From an uncultured Erysipelotrichaceae bacterium (lineage in GTDB: Bacteria > Bacillota_I > Bacilli_A > RF39 > UBA660): a stretch of 64,000 nucleotides of DNA. The stretch is taken from the NCBI GenBank assembly GCA_902794075.1, contig CADBGE010000001.1:276477-340476 (forward strand), in the 5' to 3' direction. Positions 44,154 through 47,747 of this stretch are shown in pieces. A model generated the notes under the pieces. That model did no database searches. It saw only the letters and a program-made list of their open reading frames with translations, and had not been told where the DNA came from. Every line of letters starts with the position of its first letter. Positions within the stretch are counted from its first letter, which is position 1. The position numbers were made by a program, and so were the translations under genes.

Positions 44154-46043
44154 ATGAGTAGATTTATAATAGATAGTACACAAACATCAACATTTGTTCC
44201 ATCGGCATATGACAGAGATAATAGTGTTGTTCATTCAGTTGGTAATGCAAATAATGGATTAAAAGGCGTTGATAGCTCAAACACTTCTGCTTCATTATAT
44301 TTACCGACTGGAGCGAGTGCCGAAATGTGGGCATATTATAATTTTGATTGTTCAACTATACCGCAAGATGCAGTTATAAATAATGTGACTTGTAGATTCC
44401 ATGGTTATCCTGGTGCTTCAAGCAGCGCTTATCAATCTAATAACTATTATCAAGTTTCAATAGGGACCAATAAATTAACTCCAACTACTGGATTTTCAAG
44501 CTCAAGCACTATATATACTAATACACCGAATCATGAATTTACGAGATCTGAACTTGATAATATAAAAATATGTATTCATTCTCAGAGAAATAGTTCAACA
44601 TACACTACATCAACATCTGTTCGTGTTGTATTTTACGGTGCAGAACTAAATGTAAATTATAGTCTCGGTCATTATGAATATGATGTTAATGTTGTTTCAA
44701 ACACTGATTTTGCAACAGTATCACAATCAGAAAATGTTGTTGATGAAGGAAATTCAATAACCATTCCAATCACAATAAGAAACATCAATAATATTATAAT
44801 AGAAGATAATAATATTGACATAAAATCACAACTTGTTCATCAATCAGGTAATATATATAATTACACAATATCAAATGTTAATTATGACCATGATATTGTA
44901 ATTAATAGAACAACTATTGATATAGAACCTGAAGATCCAGAATATAATTATTACACATTATCGTTATCATGTATAAATGGTGAAACAACACCAGATGGTG
45001 GAGCATATCGTTATGTTGAAGGAAGTAATCAGACAATTGAGATAGTGCCGAATGACACTATAATTACAATAGCACGAGATAATGGTGTTGATATTTCTTC
45101 ACAATTACAGCAAGGACGACAAATATATTCATGTGAATATACATCTGCTACTGTATCAGGTGCAACATATTCATTTACTCAAAATTCTGATGGATGGTTC
45201 ACTAATCAGAATACTTCGTCATCTCAAAGAAATACATATGCAATGATTAGGATTAATCTTAATCTTGAGGTTGAGTGTTTAGTAACCATAAAATATTATG
45301 GCAATTTACAAGGTGCGACAGATACGTTTAGTATTGGCAATATTGATGAAAATGTTGCTGTTAATAATTCAACAAATGGTTCTAAGATGTACACGACTTC
45401 ACCAAGAAATACAATTGACAACCCAAATACAACAAGTTTTGCAGATATACAGGGCGAACATTTTATCATATTAAAATTAAGACGTCCAAATAACTCAAGC
45501 TCAACATCAGTTACACATACCATAAATTTTAAAATAGAAATTACCCCATTAGTTCCAACTCATACTTGGATATATAATTTATCTAATATTCAAGATAATC
45601 ATTCGTTAATGTTTGTTTTTGGTGATGTAGAATATTATACCATTAACACAACAACTGATGTTACTAATGCTAAATTTTTACCATACGGAAATTGGGTATC
45701 TCTCCCGAATGAAACATATAAGTTGGTCATAATTCCTGATAACATTACACAAAAATTTCAAATAACGGATAATGATGTTGATGTTACGAATTATATGGAA
45801 TATCATGAATTTACTGATGAGAACAATCAGTTATCAGTAAATTATGTATATAAAATATTTAATGTCAATTCAAATCATAATCTTGTCATATCTAATCAAA
45901 CAAATCAATCTTCAAAATATATCAAAATGAATGGATCTTGGAACCTCATTAAGAATATATATGTAAAACAAAATGGAGAATGGATATTGAACAATGATTA
46001 TGATATAACATCAATTAATAAGATATCTTTTCTTAATTCTTAA
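44154..46043 (+). CDS. tail fibre / receptor-binding candidate
   Basis: 629-aa Ser/Thr/Asn-rich ORF, last gene of the fibre cassette. No specific family recognised. Confidence 0.5.
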   Translation: MSRFIIDSTQTSTFVPSAYDRDNSVVHSVGNANNGLKGVDSSNTSASLYLPTGASAEMWAYYNFDCSTIPQDAVINNVTCRFHGYPGASSSAYQSNNYYQVSIGTNKLTPTTGFSSSSTIYTNTPNHEFTRSELDNIKICIHSQRNSSTYTTSTSVRVVFYGAELNVNYSLGHYEYDVNVVSNTDFATVSQSENVVDEGNSITIPITIRNINNIIIEDNNIDIKSQLVHQSGNIYNYTISNVNYDHDIVINRTTIDIEPEDPEYNYYTLSLSCINGETTPDGGAYRYVEGSNQTIEIVPNDTIITIARDNGVDISSQLQQGRQIYSCEYTSATVSGATYSFTQNSDGWFTNQNTSSSQRNTYAMIRINLNLEVECLVTIKYYGNLQGATDTFSIGNIDENVAVNNSTNGSKMYTTSPRNTIDNPNTTSFADIQGEHFIILKLRRPNNSSSTSVTHTINFKIEITPLVPTHTWIYNLSNIQDNHSLMFVFGDVEYYTINTTTDVTNAKFLPYGNWVSLPNETYKLVIIPDNITQKFQITDNDVDVTNYMEYHEFTDENNQLSVNYVYKIFNVNSNHNLVISNQTNQSSKYIKMNGSWNLIKNIYVKQNGEWILNNDYDITSINKISFLNS

Positions 46044-46048
46044 TTTTG

Positions 46049-46120
46049 CGGAAATGCAGGGTTCCGACCCCTATCCACAAAAGTGAACGATCTGCTTAGC
46101 AGACCGCCATATTACTTTCC
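46049..46120 (-). tRNA. atypical tRNA-like gene, anticodon TAA (Leu-like); possibly a pseudogene
   Basis: Manual fold on the minus strand. Acceptor GGAAAGT/CATTTCC has only 5 clean pairs. Anticodon arm GGTCT-GCTAAGC-AGATC has C at position 33. T arm is TAGGG-GTCGGAA-CCCTG. Only 8 nt separate the acceptor and anticodon arm (no D arm), with a 15-nt region after it. Confidence 0.3.
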
Positions 46121-46140
46121 TACCTGCTGCTCATTAAGTG

Positions 46141-46217
46141 TACCGATGGACAGGATTGAACTGTCATGTAACCAATTACTCTTTCAACGCCTTATGAGAG
46201 CGAGGAGATACATCGGT
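46141..46217 (-). tRNA. atypical tRNA-like gene, anticodon CAT (Met or Ile2-like), no canonical D arm
   Basis: Minus strand: acceptor ACCGATG/CATCGGT, anticodon arm TCGCT-CTCATAA-GGCGT, canonical T arm GACAG-TTCAATC-CTGTC. Only 7 nt precede the anticodon arm and 21 nt (TGAAAGAGTAATTGGTTACAT) follow it. Confidence 0.5.
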
Positions 46218-46219
46218 AT

Positions 46220-46889
46220 TTGCGGAAATTATGATAAAAACTCTTTTATTTGTTGAATAATTTCTTTTGAATTATTGCAACAATATTCCCAATCTATTCT
46301 TAATTCTTTCCAGCCGTTCTTTTTTAATAAATTATCCTTTCTTTTATCACAATCTTGTTGATATTTTGAAATTTTATGAAATCTCCCATCCATTTCTATA
46401 ACTTTTTTATCATCAACCCAAGCAAAATCTAAAGAAAATGAATAAAACGGATATTCATGAATATAATTTGTATTAAGATTTTCATTTTTAATAACATTCA
46501 TTAACCATTGTTCTGGATATGATATATTATTTTTTCCTCTTAAATGTGCCCATGTTGGTGCAAGTCCTAATTTATGTTTTTCTTTCATTATTTGTGAAAG
46601 ATTATTTTTTTCTGCATCAGATAATTTGTGACCTTTAAAAATTTTTCTATTGGGATTACATTTACAAAATGTTTCATGTCTTTTATAACATTGATATGAC
46701 ATTAACATTTCTCGTCCGCAATATTGACAAACAAAATTATTTTTTATTTTATTATCTAATCGTTCGGATCTATTAGGATTAAGCTTACAATATTTTTCAT
46801 GTAATCTGCATCCATTTAATTTTTTATATGTTTTATTACAAAACTTACAATTAAACATTTTTATTTTATTTTTTATTTATTGCGGAAAT
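46220..46889 (-). mobile_element. free-standing homing-endonuclease cassette bounded by 10-bp direct repeats
   Basis: ttgcggaaat occurs at 46220-46229 and 46880-46889, flanking ORF 46229-46858. The right copy is the 3' end of the Ser-like tRNA. The left copy is an orphan abutting the 5' end of the CAT tRNA-like gene. A third copy at 46046-46055 ends the TAA tRNA-like gene. Confidence 0.55.
46229..46858 (-). CDS. homing endonuclease-like protein (zinc knuckles plus DUF559/Vsr-like PD-(D/E)xK domain)
   Basis: 209 aa. Two CxxC...H...C knuckles (CKFCNKTYKKLNGCRLHEKYC and CQYCGREMLMSYQCYKRHETFC). The C-terminal FSLDFAWVDDKKVIEMDGRFH...W.ELRI is typical of DUF559-type endonuclease domains. Confidence 0.65.
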   Translation of the reverse strand: MFNCKFCNKTYKKLNGCRLHEKYCKLNPNRSERLDNKIKNNFVCQYCGREMLMSYQCYKRHETFCKCNPNRKIFKGHKLSDAEKNNLSQIMKEKHKLGLAPTWAHLRGKNNISYPEQWLMNVIKNENLNTNYIHEYPFYSFSLDFAWVDDKKVIEMDGRFHKISKYQQDCDKRKDNLLKKNGWKELRIDWEYCCNNSKEIIQQIKEFLS

Positions 46890-46968
46890 GGGCGGTCACG
46901 ATCCGCATGCGACTTAACGCACCAACAGGTTAGCAATCTGTGTCCTCTCCTTGAGAATTCCTATTTCC
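46883..46968 (-). tRNA. type II tRNA-Ser(GCT)-like gene with non-canonical T loop
   Basis: Minus strand: acceptor GGAAATA/CATTTCC, G73, anticodon arm ACAGA-TTGCTAA-CCTGT, long variable hairpin GTGCG-TTAAGT-CGCAT, T arm (T)GCGG-ATCGTGA-CCGC(C). Confidence 0.45.
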
Positions 46969-46974
46969 AAATAG

Positions 46975-47047
46975 TGGGTCAAGTACGTTCCGCCCGTACT
47001 CCTCGAGTGCTTCAAACTCGCGCTTCTACTAAGTTAGCTTTTGACCC
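46975..47047 (-). tRNA. tRNA-Phe(GAA)-like gene with non-canonical T loop
   Basis: Cloverleaf spacing is correct (7-2-17-1-17-4-17-7). Acceptor GGGTCAA/TTGACCC, anticodon arm CGAGT-TTGAAGC-ACTCG, T arm GTACG-GGCGGAA-CGTAC. Positions 8-9 are AA and the D loop lacks GG. Confidence 0.5.
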
Positions 47048-47073
47048 AAATTAGCTTCTTCTCTATTTTATTG

Positions 47074-47150
47074 TTGGAAGGATGAGAATCGAACTCACAT
47101 GTAACCAATTATCCTTTCAACGGTGTATCAGACCGAGGGAATACCTTCCA
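47074..47150 (-). tRNA. atypical tRNA-like gene, anticodon GAT (Ile-like), no canonical D arm
   Basis: Minus strand: acceptor TGGAAGG/CCTTCCA, anticodon arm TCGGT-CTGATAC-ACCGT, canonical T arm GTGAG-TTCGATT-CTCAT. Architecture matches 46141-46217, including the identical TGAAAG and TAATTGGTTACAT segments. Confidence 0.5.
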
Positions 47151-47159
47151 TTATATTTG

Positions 47160-47231
47160 CAGGTCGTGAAGGAATCAAACCTCCATCTTCGGGTTTGGAG
47201 TCCGACATAATAATCATTATACCAACGACCT
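47160..47231 (-). tRNA. tRNA-Trp(CCA)
   Basis: Manual cloverleaf: acceptor AGGTCGT/ACGACCT, anticodon arm TCGGA-CTCCAAA-CCCGA (A31-C39 mismatch), T arm GGAGG-TTTGATT-CCTTC, G73. Confidence 0.7.
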
Positions 47232-47239
47232 ATTTTTTG

Positions 47240-47315
47240 AGTCCCAGACAGGATTCGAACCTGTGATGAATACGATTTTGCAGATCGTCGCCTTCGTCCT
47301 CTCAGCCACTGAGAC
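47240..47315 (-). tRNA. tRNA-Cys(GCA)
   Basis: Acceptor GTCTCAG/CTGGGAC, anticodon arm ACGAT-CTGCAAA-ATCGT, T arm ACAGG-TTCGAAT-CCTGT, and the U73 discriminator expected for Cys. Confidence 0.75.
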
Positions 47316-47331
47316 TTTTTATAAAATCTTG

Positions 47332-47404
47332 GGAGTTATACGGGAATCGCACCCGTGACAACAGAACCACAATCTGTTATGTTAACTACTACACTAATAA
47401 CTCC
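47332..47404 (-). tRNA. tRNA-His(GTG)
   Basis: Acceptor GAGTTAT/ATAACTC, an encoded G-1 opposite C73 (His identity feature), anticodon arm ACAGA-TTGTGGT-TCTGT, T arm ACGGG-TGCGATT-CCCGT. Confidence 0.75.
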
Positions 47405-47413
47405 ATATATTTG

Positions 47414-47486
47414 TCTTTCTACAAGGATTCGAACCCTGACCATGAAATTCGTAGTTTCGTATGCTAATCCATTACACCATAGAAAG
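47414..47486 (-). tRNA. tRNA-Arg(ACG)
   Basis: Acceptor CTTTCTA/TAGAAAG, anticodon loop CTACGAA, T arm CAGGG-TTCGAAT-CCTTG, A73. Confidence 0.75.
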
Positions 47487-47688
47487 TATTAATTATATAA
47501 TAAAAAAGAAACCCACATTTTCATGCAGGTTTCTGAAGTATAAATGCAAATATTGTGTAATAAAATATTCTATGATAAAATTATACTTCCATATCACCTG
47601 CGTTAATGCCTTTAAAGCACCAACTACAAAAACTAATATGTCGCATAATTTTGTTCATTTTTCTATTATTTATTAGTATAATATATTA

Positions 47689-47719
47689 ATAATATATTTT
47701 TTCTTAGAAAAAAATTCAA
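47689..47719 (-). promoter_or_regulatory. promoter-like motif copy upstream of the tRNA array
   Basis: aaattcaaa at 47711-47719. The minus strand reads TTGAAT followed about 17-18 nt later by an AT-rich -10-like hexamer. The next minus-strand feature is tRNA-Arg. Confidence 0.4.
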
Positions 47720-47747
47720 AAATACATAAAAAATAATTAATTTAATT

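What the first reader, a model, noticed from the sequence alone, without database searches (positions are those of the whole stretch)
46049..47150. Three tRNA-like genes that lack a D arm but carry a D-loop-like sequence after the anticodon arm, supported by compensatory changes
Genes at 47074-47150 (anticodon GAT) and 46141-46217 (anticodon CAT) have good acceptor, anticodon and canonical T arms. However, only 7 nt lie between acceptor and anticodon arm, and 21 nt follow it. The 5' linker triplet pairs with a triplet in the 3' segment, and this pairing covaries between the two genes (TCC:GGA versus CTC:GAG). The anticodon stems also covary (TCGGT/ACCGT versus TCGCT/GGCGT). The unpaired TGAAAG and TAATTGGTTACAT segments are identical in both. 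TAATTGGTTA looks like a normal D loop (compare AGTTGGTTA), but it sits where the variable loop should be. A third gene (46049-46120, anticodon TAA) has the same layout (TGG:TCA helix, then CTTTTGTGGA). The fold would still stack a short D-like stem on the anticodon stem and still offer GG to the T loop, but with rewired connectivity. I am not aware of this topology having been described for phage tRNAs.
Basis: seen in the sequence. Interest (0 to 1): 0.7.

Follow-up and report, generated by a model that had tools for sequence, protein, structure and literature searches.

The report
Phage isoleucine tRNAs with rewired core
Two genes in this phage's tRNA cluster belong to a large, phage-specific family of isoleucine tRNAs in which the D-arm pieces lie on either side of the anticodon arm yet still seem to build the usual L-shape, an arrangement I could not find described and that standard tRNA finders mostly miss.

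Summary
Two of the three claimed genes are real: 47074-47150 (anticodon GAT) and 46141-46217 (CAT), both on the minus strand. They have normal acceptor, anticodon and T arms but no D hairpin. A 3-bp helix (nt 11-13 with 37-39) encloses the anticodon arm, and a 13-nt D-loop-like strand (UAAUUGGUUACAU) leads into the T arm.

Pattern scans recovered 339 such genes in 327 viral contigs, plus about 40 Streptomyces phage records and crAss-like phages. Cellular genomes gave only five convincing copies, all on MAG contigs. Where the anticodon was left free, it was always TAT, GAT or CAT.

The 3-bp helix is paired in all 119 diverse members, in at least 12 Watson-Crick combinations. A tertiary pair also covaries as the canonical 15:48 pair does (A42:U52 versus G42:C52). 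Genes sit in tRNA arrays on the same strand as their neighbours. A close relative carries an ordinary tRNA-Ile(GAT) in the same slot.

The third gene (46049-46120) is not a member. It straddles an inversion breakpoint, and close relatives each lack a different half of it.

Best reading: working isoleucine tRNAs with a segmentally permuted core. No expression, charging or 3D data exist, and nine literature searches found no prior description.

The parts
47074..47150 (-). Gene A: rewired tRNA-Ile(GAU), 77 nt. Anticodon at 47127-47129.
   Evidence: Sequence read directly. Family covariance model R1 scores 91.5 bits. Rfam tRNA scores 28.6 bits with the D arm deleted. The gene is conserved in relatives L383-L385 with a single T-loop change.
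47138..47140 (-). Gene A, nt 11-13 (UCC): 5' strand of the long-range 3-bp helix. It stands in for D-stem positions 23-25.
   Evidence: Pairs with 47112-47114. The family alignment is 100% paired here with compensatory changes at all three pairs.
47120..47136 (-). Gene A anticodon arm (U.U plus 4 bp, loop CUGAUAC), enclosed by the long-range helix.
   Evidence: All four Watson-Crick pairs covary.
47115..47119 (-). Gene A UGAAA connector (NGAAA in the family). It stands in for the variable loop, positions 44-48.
   Evidence: NGAAA was kept in all true members but one when this segment was left free in the search pattern.
47112..47114 (-). Gene A, nt 37-39 (GGA): 3' strand of the long-range helix. 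It stands in for D-stem positions 10-12.
47099..47111 (-). Gene A D-loop-like single strand UAAUUGGUUACAU. Proposed equivalents: A41 = A14, A42 = R15, G45 G46 = G18 G19, A49 = A21, U52 = Y48.
   Evidence: GG is invariant. Length varies only on either side of GG. Nt 42:52 covaries A:U versus G:C. A rival local hairpin has no compensatory support.
47082..47098 (-). Gene A T arm (GUGAG UUCGAUU CUCAU) with a canonical T loop.
46141..46217 (-). Gene B: rewired tRNA with anticodon CAU (46194-46196), probably tRNA-Ile2. Long-range helix is 46205-46207 (CUC) with 46179-46181 (GAG). D-loop-like strand is 46166-46178.
   Evidence: R1 scores 89.7 bits. The gene is identical in L383 and L384. Ten of 163 family members found with pattern 3 carry CAT.
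46049..46120 (-). Candidate C: a tRNA-like junction remnant. It is NOT part of the family.
   Evidence: No R1 or Rfam hit. Folds as a long hairpin. Its halves are variably absent in L383 and L378. It spans the inversion breakpoint at 46047-46093.
47159..47486 (-). Four canonical tRNA genes (Trp, Cys, His, Arg) directly upstream of gene A on the same strand. This is array context.
   Evidence: ARAGORN and Rfam, 45-59 bits.
46882..47047 (-). Two further non-canonical tRNA-like genes lying between A and B. One is Phe(GAA)-like at 46974-47047. The other is Ser(GCU)-like at 46882-46968. Both have unusual T loops.
   Evidence: ARAGORN finds them only in the mitochondrial modes or at the 80% threshold. 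Stem changes relative to L383 and L378 are compensatory.
46229..46858 (-). Cys-rich DUF559 (Vsr-like) endonuclease ORF inserted in the array between the Ser-like gene and gene B. It is flanked by ATTTCCGCAA repeats.
   Evidence: Pfam PF04480, E = 1.1e-9. Repeats located. Homologues lie in other tRNA arrays.

Best explanation
Genes A and B encode working elongator tRNAs of the isoleucine family. A reads AUU/AUC through anticodon GAU. B most likely reads AUA after lysidine modification of CAU. Their core is a segmental permutation of the normal tRNA.

A canonical tRNA runs 9 - [D 5' strand + D loop] - [D 3' strand, 26, anticodon arm] - variable loop - T arm. These RNAs run 9 - [D 3' strand equivalent, C, anticodon arm] - NGAAA - [D 5' strand equivalent + D loop equivalent] - CAU - T arm.

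The two D-stem strands still pair (nt 11-13 with 37-39, with the U10.U40 juxtaposition standing in for pair 13:22). They now enclose the anticodon arm and stack on it. This gives a three-way junction in place of the cloverleaf's four-way junction.

The D-loop-like strand leaves the far end of that helix and makes the usual elbow and core contacts. U8:A41 corresponds to U8:A14. R42:Y52 corresponds to R15:Y48. G45 G46 contact the T loop, as G18 G19 do with Psi55 and C56.

The RNA would then present a normal L-shape, anticodon loop, discriminator A73 and acceptor end to host RNase P, the CCA-adding enzyme, IleRS, EF-Tu and the ribosome.

Shown here: the secondary structure, the 42:52 tertiary pair, the restriction to NAU anticodons, the array context, and interchangeability with a canonical tRNA-Ile gene.

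Inferred: the remaining tertiary contacts, expression, charging with isoleucine, and decoding.

Likely origin (inference): tandem duplication of nt 10-43 followed by loss of the outer copies (X-Y to X-Y-X-Y to Y-X). Spread between phages was probably helped by homing endonucleases that populate tRNA arrays.
For: 1. Family size. Four pattern scans gave 339 genes in 327 IMG/VR loci. About 40 Streptomyces phage records also carry it, as do Kehishuvirus tikkala, cr130_1 and a 462-kb uncultured phage.

2. Virus specificity. The same pattern found only 8 stretches in genomes of 185,579 species. All were on MAG contigs, and 5 were true members.

3. Secondary structure.
- On 119 sequences that are under 90% identical to one another, 97.7% of cells are paired, against 62.3% when shuffled.
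- The covariation score is 0.913, against 0.217 shuffled (0 of 500 shuffles reach it) and 0.11-0.18 for the slid controls.
- Helix 11-13:37-39 is 100% paired, with both-sided changes at all three pairs (25, 52 and 17 cells).
- Fourteen triplet combinations occur, including CUC:GAG, CCC:GGG, ACC:GGU, CGG:CCG, CCG:CGG, AGG:CCU and AAC:GUU.
- RNAalifold predicts the same helix on its own.
- The 18 highest-ranked column pairs from an unsupervised, background-corrected mutual-information scan are exactly the four helices plus 42:52.

4. Tertiary pair.
- Counts are A42/U52 142, G42/C52 58, A/C 3, G/U 3 and G/G 8 (Fisher p = 1e-43, not corrected for phylogeny).
- Eighteen of 78 backbone groups hold more than one 42/52 state, and most of those hold both A:U and G:C.
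- Position 52 was unconstrained in both searches.

5. D-loop behaviour. GG is invariant. Length varies (12-14 nt) only in the stretches flanking GG, like the alpha and beta regions of real D loops.

6. Isoleucine identity.
- Anticodons were only TAT, GAT or CAT in the two searches that left the anticodon free.
- The discriminator is A in 163 of 163.
- The anticodon loop reads CUNAUA(A/C/U).
- The discriminator and anticodon are the strong Ile determinants (PMC9976931).

7. Gene context.
- 222 of 339 genes have a canonical tRNA within 500 nt.
- All 654 such neighbours lie on the same strand.
- Multi-copy loci combine GAT with TAT.
- The base after the discriminator is C in 213 of 244.

8. Interchangeability. 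In relative L378, which is 92% identical across the neighbouring genes, the slot between tRNA-Trp and the Phe-like gene holds a canonical tRNA-Ile(GAT). The downstream spacer is the same.

9. Demand. The window is 29% GC. ATT runs at 44.0 and ATA at 37.5 per 1000 codons.
Against: - There is no direct evidence of transcription, processing, aminoacylation or ribosomal use.
- Single-sequence thermodynamics do not favour the 3-bp helix. It appears in only 7.5% of 186 minimum-energy folds, its mean pair probability is 0.09, and the proposed fold is on average 3.1 kcal/mol above the minimum. Gene A's fold energy is no better than that of shuffles (z = -0.31).
- The three-dimensional feasibility of the new backbone connections (9 to 22, 43 to 10, 21 to 48) was reasoned from the canonical fold, not modelled.
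- U8:A41 and G45 G46 with the T loop are invariant, so they are compatible with the model but are not covariation evidence.
- E. coli IleRS also uses minor determinants in the D stem, D loop and anticodon stem. Their equivalents are not conserved here: pairs 4:73 and 17:29 vary.
- 49 of 327 loci also carry a canonical tRNA-Ile, so the rewired copy is not always the only Ile tRNA.
- The covariation statistics are not phylogeny-corrected.
- Gene B's copy in L378 carries a 31-32-nt insertion and an acceptor mismatch. The gene is therefore dispensable or decaying in at least one relative.
Confidence: 0.72

Rival explanations
1. The RNAs are tRNA mimics that are made but do not decode. They might act as decoys or sponges for a host tRNA-targeting defence nuclease or another tRNA-binding factor, or as primers or regulators.
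For: - The family is essentially restricted to viruses.
- The architecture departs from every working bacterial tRNA known to me. The abstract of PMC11551756 says all known bacterial tRNAs are canonical.
- Some carriers also have a canonical tRNA-Ile: Kehishuvirus and 49 of 327 loci.
- Phage tRNAs are known targets of, and counter-measures to, defence nucleases (background in PMC13056530).
Against: - A decoy would not need the strong IleRS determinants. Yet A73 is found in 163 of 163, and the NAU anticodon and A37 are kept.
- A decoy would not need isoacceptor-like sets, yet GAT and TAT occur together in one locus.
- A decoy would not need a conserved C after the discriminator.
- A close relative has an ordinary tRNA-Ile(GAT) in exactly the same slot. 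That fits functional equivalence in decoding.
- The window's very high ATT and ATA usage gives a direct translational rationale.
Confidence: 0.13
2. The genes are precursors. They would be rearranged, spliced or trans-ligated after transcription into a conventional cloverleaf tRNA, as happens with permuted or intron-containing tRNA genes in archaea and red algae.
For: Permuted and multiply interrupted tRNA genes exist elsewhere (PMC3728597, listed). One relative's copy of gene B carries a 31-32-nt hairpin insertion at the canonical intron position 37/38.
Against: - The gene is already exactly tRNA-sized (77 nt), with the acceptor strands at its two ends in the normal order.
- Turning it into a cloverleaf would need excision and re-insertion of an internal segment. 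To my knowledge no such bacterial or phage pathway is known.
- Selection acts on the unprocessed arrangement. The 11-13:37-39 helix and the 42:52 pair covary as written.
- No recurrent ligase or endonuclease of the splicing type turned up among the neighbours. The commonest neighbour is an HNH endonuclease.
Confidence: 0.03
3. The genes are decaying tRNA pseudogenes, or the layout is a chance resemblance.
For: ARAGORN and Rfam do not call them. Minimum-energy folding is unremarkable. Candidate C next door really is a remnant.
Against: - More than 200 distinct sequences, from unrelated phages and environments, keep every helix through compensatory change.
- They also keep about 24 invariant positions.
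- Pseudogenes do not behave this way.
Confidence: 0.02
4. This rival concerns gene B only. B is an elongator tRNA-Met reading AUG, not a lysidine-dependent tRNA-Ile2 reading AUA.
For: An unmodified CAU anticodon is the methionine anticodon and a MetRS determinant (PMC9976931). The anticodon loop CUCAUAA fits both identities. ARAGORN finds no other tRNA-Met in the window.
Against: - Every other member of this architecture carries an unambiguous Ile anticodon: TAT in 118 and GAT in 35 of 163.
- CAT members are a minority (10 of 163), as expected for the AUA-reading isoacceptor.
- ATA is 42% of Ile codons in this 29%-GC phage.
Confidence: 0.3

Closest known systems
Canonical bacterial and phage tRNA-Ile (GAU, k2CAU and UAU isoacceptors)
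   Same: - 7-bp acceptor stem and discriminator A73.
- Anticodon loop CUNAUA(A/C) with NAU anticodons.
- 5-bp T stem with a UUCRANY loop.
- Total length of 77 nt.
- Location in phage tRNA arrays.
- Conserved U8, A14-like, R15:Y48-like, G18 G19-like and A21-like residues.
- A canonical tRNA-Ile(GAT) occupies the same slot in relative L378.
   Different: - There is no D hairpin between the acceptor and anticodon stems.
- The D-stem strands lie on either side of the anticodon arm, and the D-loop-like strand lies 3' of it.
- The junction is three-way, not four-way.
- A conserved GAAA connector is present.
- Rfam scores are 28-34 bits or no hit, against 42-76 bits for neighbouring tRNAs.
D-armless mitochondrial tRNAs, such as metazoan mt-tRNA-Ser(AGY) (reviewed in PMC7609411 and PMC4013460)
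   Same: No D hairpin and a three-way junction. A short 5' connector lies between the acceptor and anticodon stems. The anticodon-side helix is effectively extended.
   Different: - The mitochondrial forms are shortened. From general knowledge, they have lost the G18 G19 and T-loop elbow contacts and need adapted partner proteins.
- The phage RNAs are full length.
- They keep GG, a canonical T loop and a covarying 15:48-type pair, with a D-loop-like strand placed on the 3' side.
- ARAGORN's mitochondrial modes do not call them.
Class II tRNAs (Leu, Ser, Tyr) and allo-tRNAs with long variable arms (PMC5389517)
   Same: There is a long stretch (21 nt) between the anticodon stem and the T stem. 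This is how the Rfam model aligns it.
   Different: - In class II and allo-tRNAs that stretch forms its own hairpin, and a normal D arm is present.
- Here the stretch does not form a supported hairpin.
- Instead it supplies one strand of the D-stem-like helix plus the D-loop-like strand.
- The acceptor/T configuration is 7/5, not 8/4 or 9/3.
Circularly permuted or split tRNA genes (Cyanidioschyzon merolae, archaea; PMC3728597)
   Same: The order of tRNA segments in the gene differs from the canonical order.
   Different: In those cases the 3' half precedes the 5' half, and processing restores a canonical mature tRNA. Here the termini are normal and the permutation is internal (segments 10-21 and 22-43 are swapped). 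Covariation indicates that the permuted RNA itself is the folded product.
Viral tRNA-like structures (e.g. the TYMV 3' TLS) and bacterial Y-RNA tRNA-like domains (from my own knowledge, not tested here)
   Same: They reach a tRNA-like L-shape with non-canonical strand connectivity.
   Different: Those are domains of larger RNAs and are not free adaptor tRNAs with a decoding anticodon arm. The phage RNAs are stand-alone, tRNA-sized genes in tRNA arrays with isoacceptor-type anticodons.

Membership tests
Canonical cloverleaf tRNA (Rfam RF00005) | 7-bp acceptor stem closed by the 5' and 3' ends, plus a discriminator base. | tested here: met
   96.9% of cells are paired and all 7 pairs covary. The discriminator is A in 163 of 163.
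Canonical cloverleaf tRNA (Rfam RF00005) | Anticodon arm with a 7-nt loop, U33 and a purine at position 37. | tested here: met
   The loop is C-U-N-A-U-A-N in all members. Four Watson-Crick pairs covary, plus a conserved U.U.
Canonical cloverleaf tRNA (Rfam RF00005) | T arm: 5-bp stem with a UUCRANY loop. | tested here: met
   97% paired. T loops are UUCAAGU, UUCAAUU, UUCGAUU and similar.
Canonical cloverleaf tRNA (Rfam RF00005) | D arm as a local hairpin (10-13 / loop / 22-25) lying between nt 9 and nt 26, giving a four-way junction. | tested here: not met
   Only 7 nt separate the acceptor and anticodon stems. The Rfam alignment deletes 15 D-arm positions. The D-stem-like helix pairs nt 11-13 with 37-39 across the anticodon arm.
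Canonical cloverleaf tRNA (Rfam RF00005) | Score at or above the curated gathering threshold, or detection by ARAGORN. | tested here: not met
   Gene A scores 28.6 against a threshold of 29, and gene B is not hit. Three of 19 family members in 18 loci pass, at 32-34 bits. ARAGORN of 339.
Canonical cloverleaf tRNA (Rfam RF00005) | Core tertiary contacts: R15:Y48 Levitt pair, U8:A14, and G18 G19 with Psi55 C56. | tested here: inconclusive
   The 15:48 equivalent (nt 42:52) covaries: A:U 142 and G:C 58 of 214. The other equivalents (U8, A41, G45 G46, U59 C60) are invariant. They are compatible with the contacts but unproven. No 3D model was made.
tRNA-Ile identity (bacterial IleRS substrates) | Strong determinants: anticodon NAU (G34, k2C34 or U34; A35; U36), A37 (t6A) and discriminator A73. 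| tested here: met
   Only TAT, GAT or CAT occur when the anticodon was unconstrained. A37 and A73 are invariant. The determinant list comes from PMC9976931.
tRNA-Ile identity (bacterial IleRS substrates) | E. coli minor determinants: C4-G69, 12-23, C29-G41, and D-loop residues 16, 20 and 21. | tested here: not met
   Pairs 4:73 and 17:29 (the equivalents of 4:69 and 29:41) vary freely. Only the U20-like residue (nt 47) is nearly invariant. These determinants are species-specific, so this carries limited weight.
tRNA-Ile identity (bacterial IleRS substrates) | Actual aminoacylation with isoleucine and decoding of AUH codons. | not testable with these tools
   Biochemistry or tRNA sequencing is required. 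The indirect support is slot replacement by a canonical tRNA-Ile(GAT) in L378.
D-armless mitochondrial-type tRNA | A truncated tRNA (usually under 70 nt) with a short D-replacement loop, loss of the D-loop/T-loop elbow contacts, and detectability with mitochondrial models. | tested here: not met
   The length is 77 nt. GG and a canonical T loop are retained. None of ARAGORN's four mitochondrial modes (-mt, -mtmam, -mtd, -mtx) calls A or B.
Class II (long variable arm) tRNA | The variable region folds into its own stem-loop, alongside a normal D arm. | tested here: not met
   The local hairpin 39-42:47-50 has no compensatory pair, and 25 and 36 sequences break two of its pairs. The D arm is absent.
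Permuted or split tRNA gene | The 3' half is encoded upstream of the 5' half, or on a separate locus. Processing motifs are present and the mature tRNA is canonical. | tested here: not met
   The acceptor 5' and 3' strands sit at the gene ends in normal order, and the gene is tRNA-sized and collinear. The mature RNA itself was not observed.

The most novel reading that the evidence does not exclude
Phages carry a hitherto unrecognised structural class of functional tRNA. It is a topological isomer of the L-shape in which segments 10-21 and 22-43 have swapped order. It is charged by host IleRS and used on host ribosomes.

If true, it would be the first natural adaptor tRNA with permuted core connectivity. 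It would show that the translation machinery reads tRNA shape rather than strand path.

A bolder extension is that the rewiring is selected because it escapes host tRNA-directed immunity or processing that inspects the D arm, while staying translationally competent. Its virus-only distribution hints at this but does not show it.
Probability: 0.5. Interest if true: 0.92.

Novelty: new variant of a known kind. Interest (0 to 1): 0.85.

Why it matters
- **tRNA structure.** The cloverleaf and its strand connectivity are treated as universal outside mitochondria. The abstract of PMC11551756 states that all known bacterial tRNAs are canonical. A widespread natural family that keeps the tertiary contacts but permutes the backbone path would be a new data point on what aminoacyl-tRNA synthetases, RNase P, EF-Tu and the ribosome actually require. 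It would also offer a ready-made scaffold for orthogonal tRNA engineering.
- **Genome annotation.** ARAGORN misses 334 of 339 copies, and the Rfam tRNA model sits at or below threshold. Ile-decoding capacity in phage genomes is therefore systematically under-annotated. The gene is an unannotated gap in Kehishuvirus tikkala and in nearly all of the roughly 40 Streptomyces phage records that carry it. It is labelled tRNA-Leu(UUA) in EGole.
- **Testability.** The question is directly testable, because cultured phage-host pairs carry the gene.

Tried and rejected
- **ARAGORN modes.** I ran the standard bacterial mode, three relaxed-threshold runs (-ps, -ps80, -mt -ps), the intron mode and four mitochondrial modes (-mt, -mtmam, -mtd, -mtx). 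No mode gives a conventional cloverleaf for A or B.
- **Rfam.** At E <= 10 the only hit is the D-arm-deleted alignment of gene A.
- **Rival local hairpin.** The GUAA/UUAC hairpin inside the D-loop-like strand, which RNAfold predicts for gene B, has no compensatory change and many broken pairs. Rejected.
- **Single-sequence thermodynamics.** These do not support or discriminate the 3-bp helix. I treated them as uninformative, as for many real D stems.
- **Relatives of the window in IMG/VR.** Searches with the 629-aa tail-fibre-like protein and with the lysozyme found none. Megablast of 20 kb against GenBank phages also found none.
- **Relatives in Logan and ENA.** These were found through the 171-aa and DUF559 proteins instead.
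- **Dedicated partner enzyme.** I clustered 2,786 neighbouring ORFs. The recurrent families are an HNH endonuclease (74 loci), an unannotated ~700-aa ORF family (40 loci) and short unannotated ORFs. The clusters were judged by eye, not scanned against Pfam; I recognised nothing synthetase-like.
- **Phe-like odd tRNA.** A pattern search of IMG/VR gave 0 hits.
- **Literature.** Nine full-text searches, including the exact motif TAATTGGTTACAT, found no description of this layout. A tenth query was rejected for syntax. The review of non-canonical tRNAs, PMC7609411, was also checked. The library omits most subscription journals, so prior description cannot be excluded.
- **Candidate C as a family member.** Rejected.

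Full report
**What is in the window**

The finding lies in a minus-strand tRNA cluster at about 46040-47490. ARAGORN and Rfam agree on four ordinary tRNAs: Arg 47413-47486, His 47331-47403, Cys 47239-47315 and Trp 47159-47231.

Directly downstream on the same strand lie, in order:
- gene A (47074-47150);
- a Phe(GAA)-like gene and a Ser(GCU)-like gene with odd T loops;
- a DUF559 endonuclease ORF (46229-46858);
- gene B (46141-46217);
- candidate C (46049-46120).

The window is a 29%-GC phage fragment with baseplate and tail-fibre genes. It has no close relative among GenBank phages.

**Checking the observation**

Read on the minus strand, the two genes parse as follows.

- A = UGGAAGG UAU UCC C UCGGU CUGAUAC ACCGU UGAAA GGA UAAUUGGUUACAU GUGAG UUCGAUU CUCAU CCUUCCA A
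- B = ACCGAUG UAU CUC C UCGCU CUCAUAA GGCGU UGAAA GAG UAAUUGGUUACAU GACAG UUCAAUC CUGUC CAUCGGU A

No conventional cloverleaf is recoverable:
- ARAGORN in every mode tried never calls them: standard, relaxed-threshold, intron and four mitochondrial modes.
- The Rfam tRNA model gives A 28.6 bits, just under its threshold of 29. It gets there only by deleting the D arm and inserting 18 nt in the variable region.
- The Rfam model does not report B at all.

**A large family, not a local oddity**

A blastn search unexpectedly matched gene A, at 77.5% identity over 80 nt, to about 40 Streptomyces phages (Samistivirus). Nearly all of those records leave the region unannotated. One record, EGole, calls it tRNA-Leu(UUA). 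The Streptomyces copy has the same layout with a third triplet pair, ACC:GGU.

Gene B matched the crAss-like Kehishuvirus tikkala. There the element fills an unannotated, tRNA-sized gap between tRNA-Trp and tRNA-Met in an array of more than 20 annotated tRNAs.

I then ran four pattern scans of IMG/VR. Each left a different part of the molecule unconstrained. Together they yielded 339 genes in 327 loci and 214 distinct sequences.

The first pattern was also run against one genome from each of 185,579 bacterial and archaeal species. It found only eight stretches, all on MAG contigs, of which five are true members. The element is therefore essentially virus-specific.

**Secondary structure**

I analysed 119 members that are under 90% identical to one another (alignment A2). 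The proposed structure is paired in 97.7% of cells, against 62.3% in shuffles. The covariation score is 0.913, against 0.217 in shuffles (0 of 500 reach it) and 0.11-0.18 when partners are slid by 1-3 columns.

The long-range helix (nt 11-13 with 37-39) is paired in every sequence. Its pair types are:

| Pair | Types observed |
|---|---|
| 11:39 | CG 94, AU 22, UA 3 |
| 12:38 | CG 65, UA 31, GC 17, AU 4, UG 2 |
| 13:37 | CG 101, GC 16, AU 1, UG 1 |

Three further results agree:
- Across 163 members there are 14 triplet combinations.
- RNAalifold predicts the same helix without being told.
- An unsupervised, background-corrected mutual-information scan ranks, as its top 18 column pairs, exactly the acceptor, anticodon, T and long-range helices plus one extra pair, 42:52.

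The competing local hairpin inside the 13-nt strand has no compensatory change and 61 broken cells in two of its pairs.

The outermost anticodon-stem position (15:31) is a conserved U.U, not a pair.

**Tertiary structure**

The 13-nt strand reads U-A-R-(1-3 nt)-G-G-U-N-R-C-A-Y. This behaves like a D loop, A14 R15 (alpha region) G18 G19 (beta region) A21, followed by a short link ending in Y48:
- GG is invariant.
- Length varies (12-14 nt) only on either side of GG.

The decisive observation is about nt 42 and nt 52. When I searched for members with G instead of A at nt 42, the last linker base (nt 52), left free in both searches, switched from U to C. Over 214 sequences the counts are A/U 142, G/C 58, A/C 3, G/U 3 and G/G 8 (Fisher p = 1e-43, uncorrected for phylogeny). 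Eighteen of 78 groups with otherwise identical helices hold more than one 42/52 state, and most hold both A:U and G:C, so the switch happened many times. This is the signature of the canonical R15:Y48 Levitt pair.

The other proposed equivalents are invariant or nearly so. They are consistent with the model but carry no covariation information:
- U8:A41 for U8:A14;
- G45 G46 with U59 C60 for G18 G19 with Psi55 C56;
- G37:C13 for G10:C25;
- U10.U40 for 13:22.

The resulting model keeps the canonical core but changes the chain order. The canonical order is 9-[10-21]-[22-43]-[44-48]-49. The order here is 9-[22-43 equivalent]-NGAAA-[10-21 equivalent]-CAY-49. The D-stem-like helix stacks on the anticodon stem as usual. 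The cloverleaf's four-way junction becomes a three-way junction.

The 3D feasibility of the three new connections was reasoned, not modelled. Nearest-neighbour thermodynamics do not by themselves favour the 3-bp helix.

**What it does**

Several lines point to a working isoleucine tRNA.
- *Anticodons.* In the two searches that left the anticodon free, every true member had TAT, GAT or CAT.
- *Identity elements.* The discriminator is A in 163 of 163, and A37 is invariant. The discriminator and anticodon are the strong bacterial Ile determinants (PMC9976931).
- *Array context.* 222 of 339 copies lie within 500 nt of a canonical tRNA, and all 654 such neighbours are on the same strand.
- *Isoacceptor sets.* Loci with several copies combine GAT with TAT.
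- *3' end.* The base after the discriminator is C in 87% of non-redundant copies, and CCA is fully encoded in 10%.
- *Slot replacement.* This is the most telling result. I reached the window's own relatives through a neighbouring 171-aa protein. In L378, which is 92% identical across the Phe-like, Ser-like, endonuclease and gene-B regions, the slot of gene A holds a canonical tRNA-Ile(GAT). That slot lies between tRNA-Trp and the Phe-like gene, and the downstream spacer is the same. Relatives L383-L385 keep rewired A and B. So the rewired and ordinary genes are interchangeable cassettes for the same anticodon.
- *Codon demand.* The phage uses ATT at 44.0 and ATA at 37.5 per 1000 codons.

Gene B (CAU) is probably the lysidine-dependent AUA reader. 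A tRNA-Met identity cannot be excluded.

No dedicated synthetase-like neighbour recurs. The commonest neighbour is an HNH homing endonuclease, in 74 of 327 loci. That fits cassette mobility.

None of this shows expression or charging directly.

**Candidate C**

The third gene fails every test:
- It has none of the family motifs.
- The family covariance model scores A at 91.5 bits and B at 89.7 bits, but does not hit C.
- C folds as a long hairpin with a UAA triloop.
- Relative L383 keeps only its 5' part, and L378 keeps only its 3' part.
- The whole 1.63-kb tRNA segment (46093-47726) is inverted in the window relative to L383, and C straddles the left breakpoint.

C is a junction remnant with tRNA-like pieces, not a conserved gene.

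**Comparison with known systems, and novelty**

| Known kind | Why the family differs |
|---|---|
| Canonical tRNA (RF00005) | Meets most defining features but fails one: a local D hairpin forming a four-way junction |
| Mitochondrial D-armless tRNA | Full length; keeps the elbow residues; not called by ARAGORN's mitochondrial modes |
| Class II tRNA or allo-tRNA | The long 3' region forms no hairpin of its own; the acceptor/T configuration is 7/5 |
| Permuted tRNA gene | The termini are in normal order, and covariation acts on the permuted RNA itself |

Nine full-text literature searches, including the exact motif, found nothing describing this arrangement. Nor did a review of non-canonical tRNAs. 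The library lacks most subscription journals, so prior description cannot be ruled out.

I rate it a new variant of a known kind. It is a tRNA, but with a core topology not known to me from any natural adaptor tRNA.

**Verdict**

The third gene is rejected.

My confidence that these are functional tRNA-Ile with a permuted L-shaped core is about 0.7. Interest is 0.85.

Noticed in passing
window 46974-47047 (-): This is a Phe(GAA)-like tRNA. Its D loop lacks GG (AACUUAGUAGA) and its T loop reads GGCGGAA. ARAGORN finds it only in the mitochondrial modes, and Rfam does not hit it at E <= 10. Relative L383 has fully compensatory changes. The acceptor stem is GGGUCAA/UUGACCC in the window and GGAGAAG/CUUCUCC in L383. 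The anticodon stem shows a C-G to U-A change. It is therefore a maintained structured RNA. A pattern search of IMG/VR found no other copies.
   Followed up: partly
window 46882-46968 (-): This is a Ser(GCU)-like class II tRNA with a non-canonical T loop (AUCGUGA). ARAGORN calls it only at the 80% threshold. Its anticodon stem reads ACAG/CUGU in the window and CCGG/CCGG in L378, which is a double compensatory change.
   Followed up: partly
window 46093-47726, compared with L383:2160-3766: The whole tRNA segment, including about 240 nt of its upstream region, is inverted relative to a roughly 92%-identical relative. Both flanks are collinear. No inverted repeat was found at the right-hand breakpoint.
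   Followed up: partly
window 46229-46858 (-); repeats at 46046-46055, 46220-46229 and 46880-46889: A Cys-rich DUF559 (Vsr-like) endonuclease ORF sits inside the tRNA array. Two exact copies of ATTTCCGCAA bracket it, and a third lies at the end of candidate C. Homologues at 38-97% identity are common in metagenomes, and the P0007 homologue (58% identical) lies in other tRNA arrays. It is probably a homing endonuclease.
   Followed up: partly
L378:6606-6713 (-): The relative's copy of gene B carries a 31-32-nt insertion that forms a hairpin. The insertion sits exactly after CUCAUA, which is tRNA position 37/38, the canonical intron site. The copy also has a C3:A mismatch in the acceptor stem. 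It could be a disruptive insertion or an intron-like element.
   Followed up: no
L001:1502-1578 (Streptomyces phage EGole MK494112, 75265-75341) and about 39 sister records: The rewired gene has anticodon GAU in the family register. EGole annotates it as tRNA-Leu (codon UUA). The other listed Samistivirus records have no annotation there.
   Followed up: partly
327 IMG/VR loci (for example L035:507-965): An HNH endonuclease ORF of about 150 aa lies within 3 kb of the rewired tRNA in 74 of 327 loci. It is the most frequent neighbour family.
   Followed up: partly
Family-wide: the base 3' of the discriminator (window 47073 and 46140): The nucleotide after the discriminator is C in 213 of 244 non-redundant genes. 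Full CCA is encoded in only 24. Genes A and B follow this pattern: A is followed by CAA and B by CAC.
   Followed up: no
L009:176-404 (-): A group I intron (Rfam RF00028, 96 bits) lies beside the tRNA array of a viral contig that carries two rewired tRNA-Ile genes.
   Followed up: no
window 47048-47073 (-), the spacer between gene A and the Phe-like gene: The spacer contains GAGAAGAAGCUAA. This matches the 5' end of the L383-type Phe-like gene (GGAGAAGAAGCUAAC...). It suggests a past cassette replacement that left a 5' remnant.
   Followed up: no
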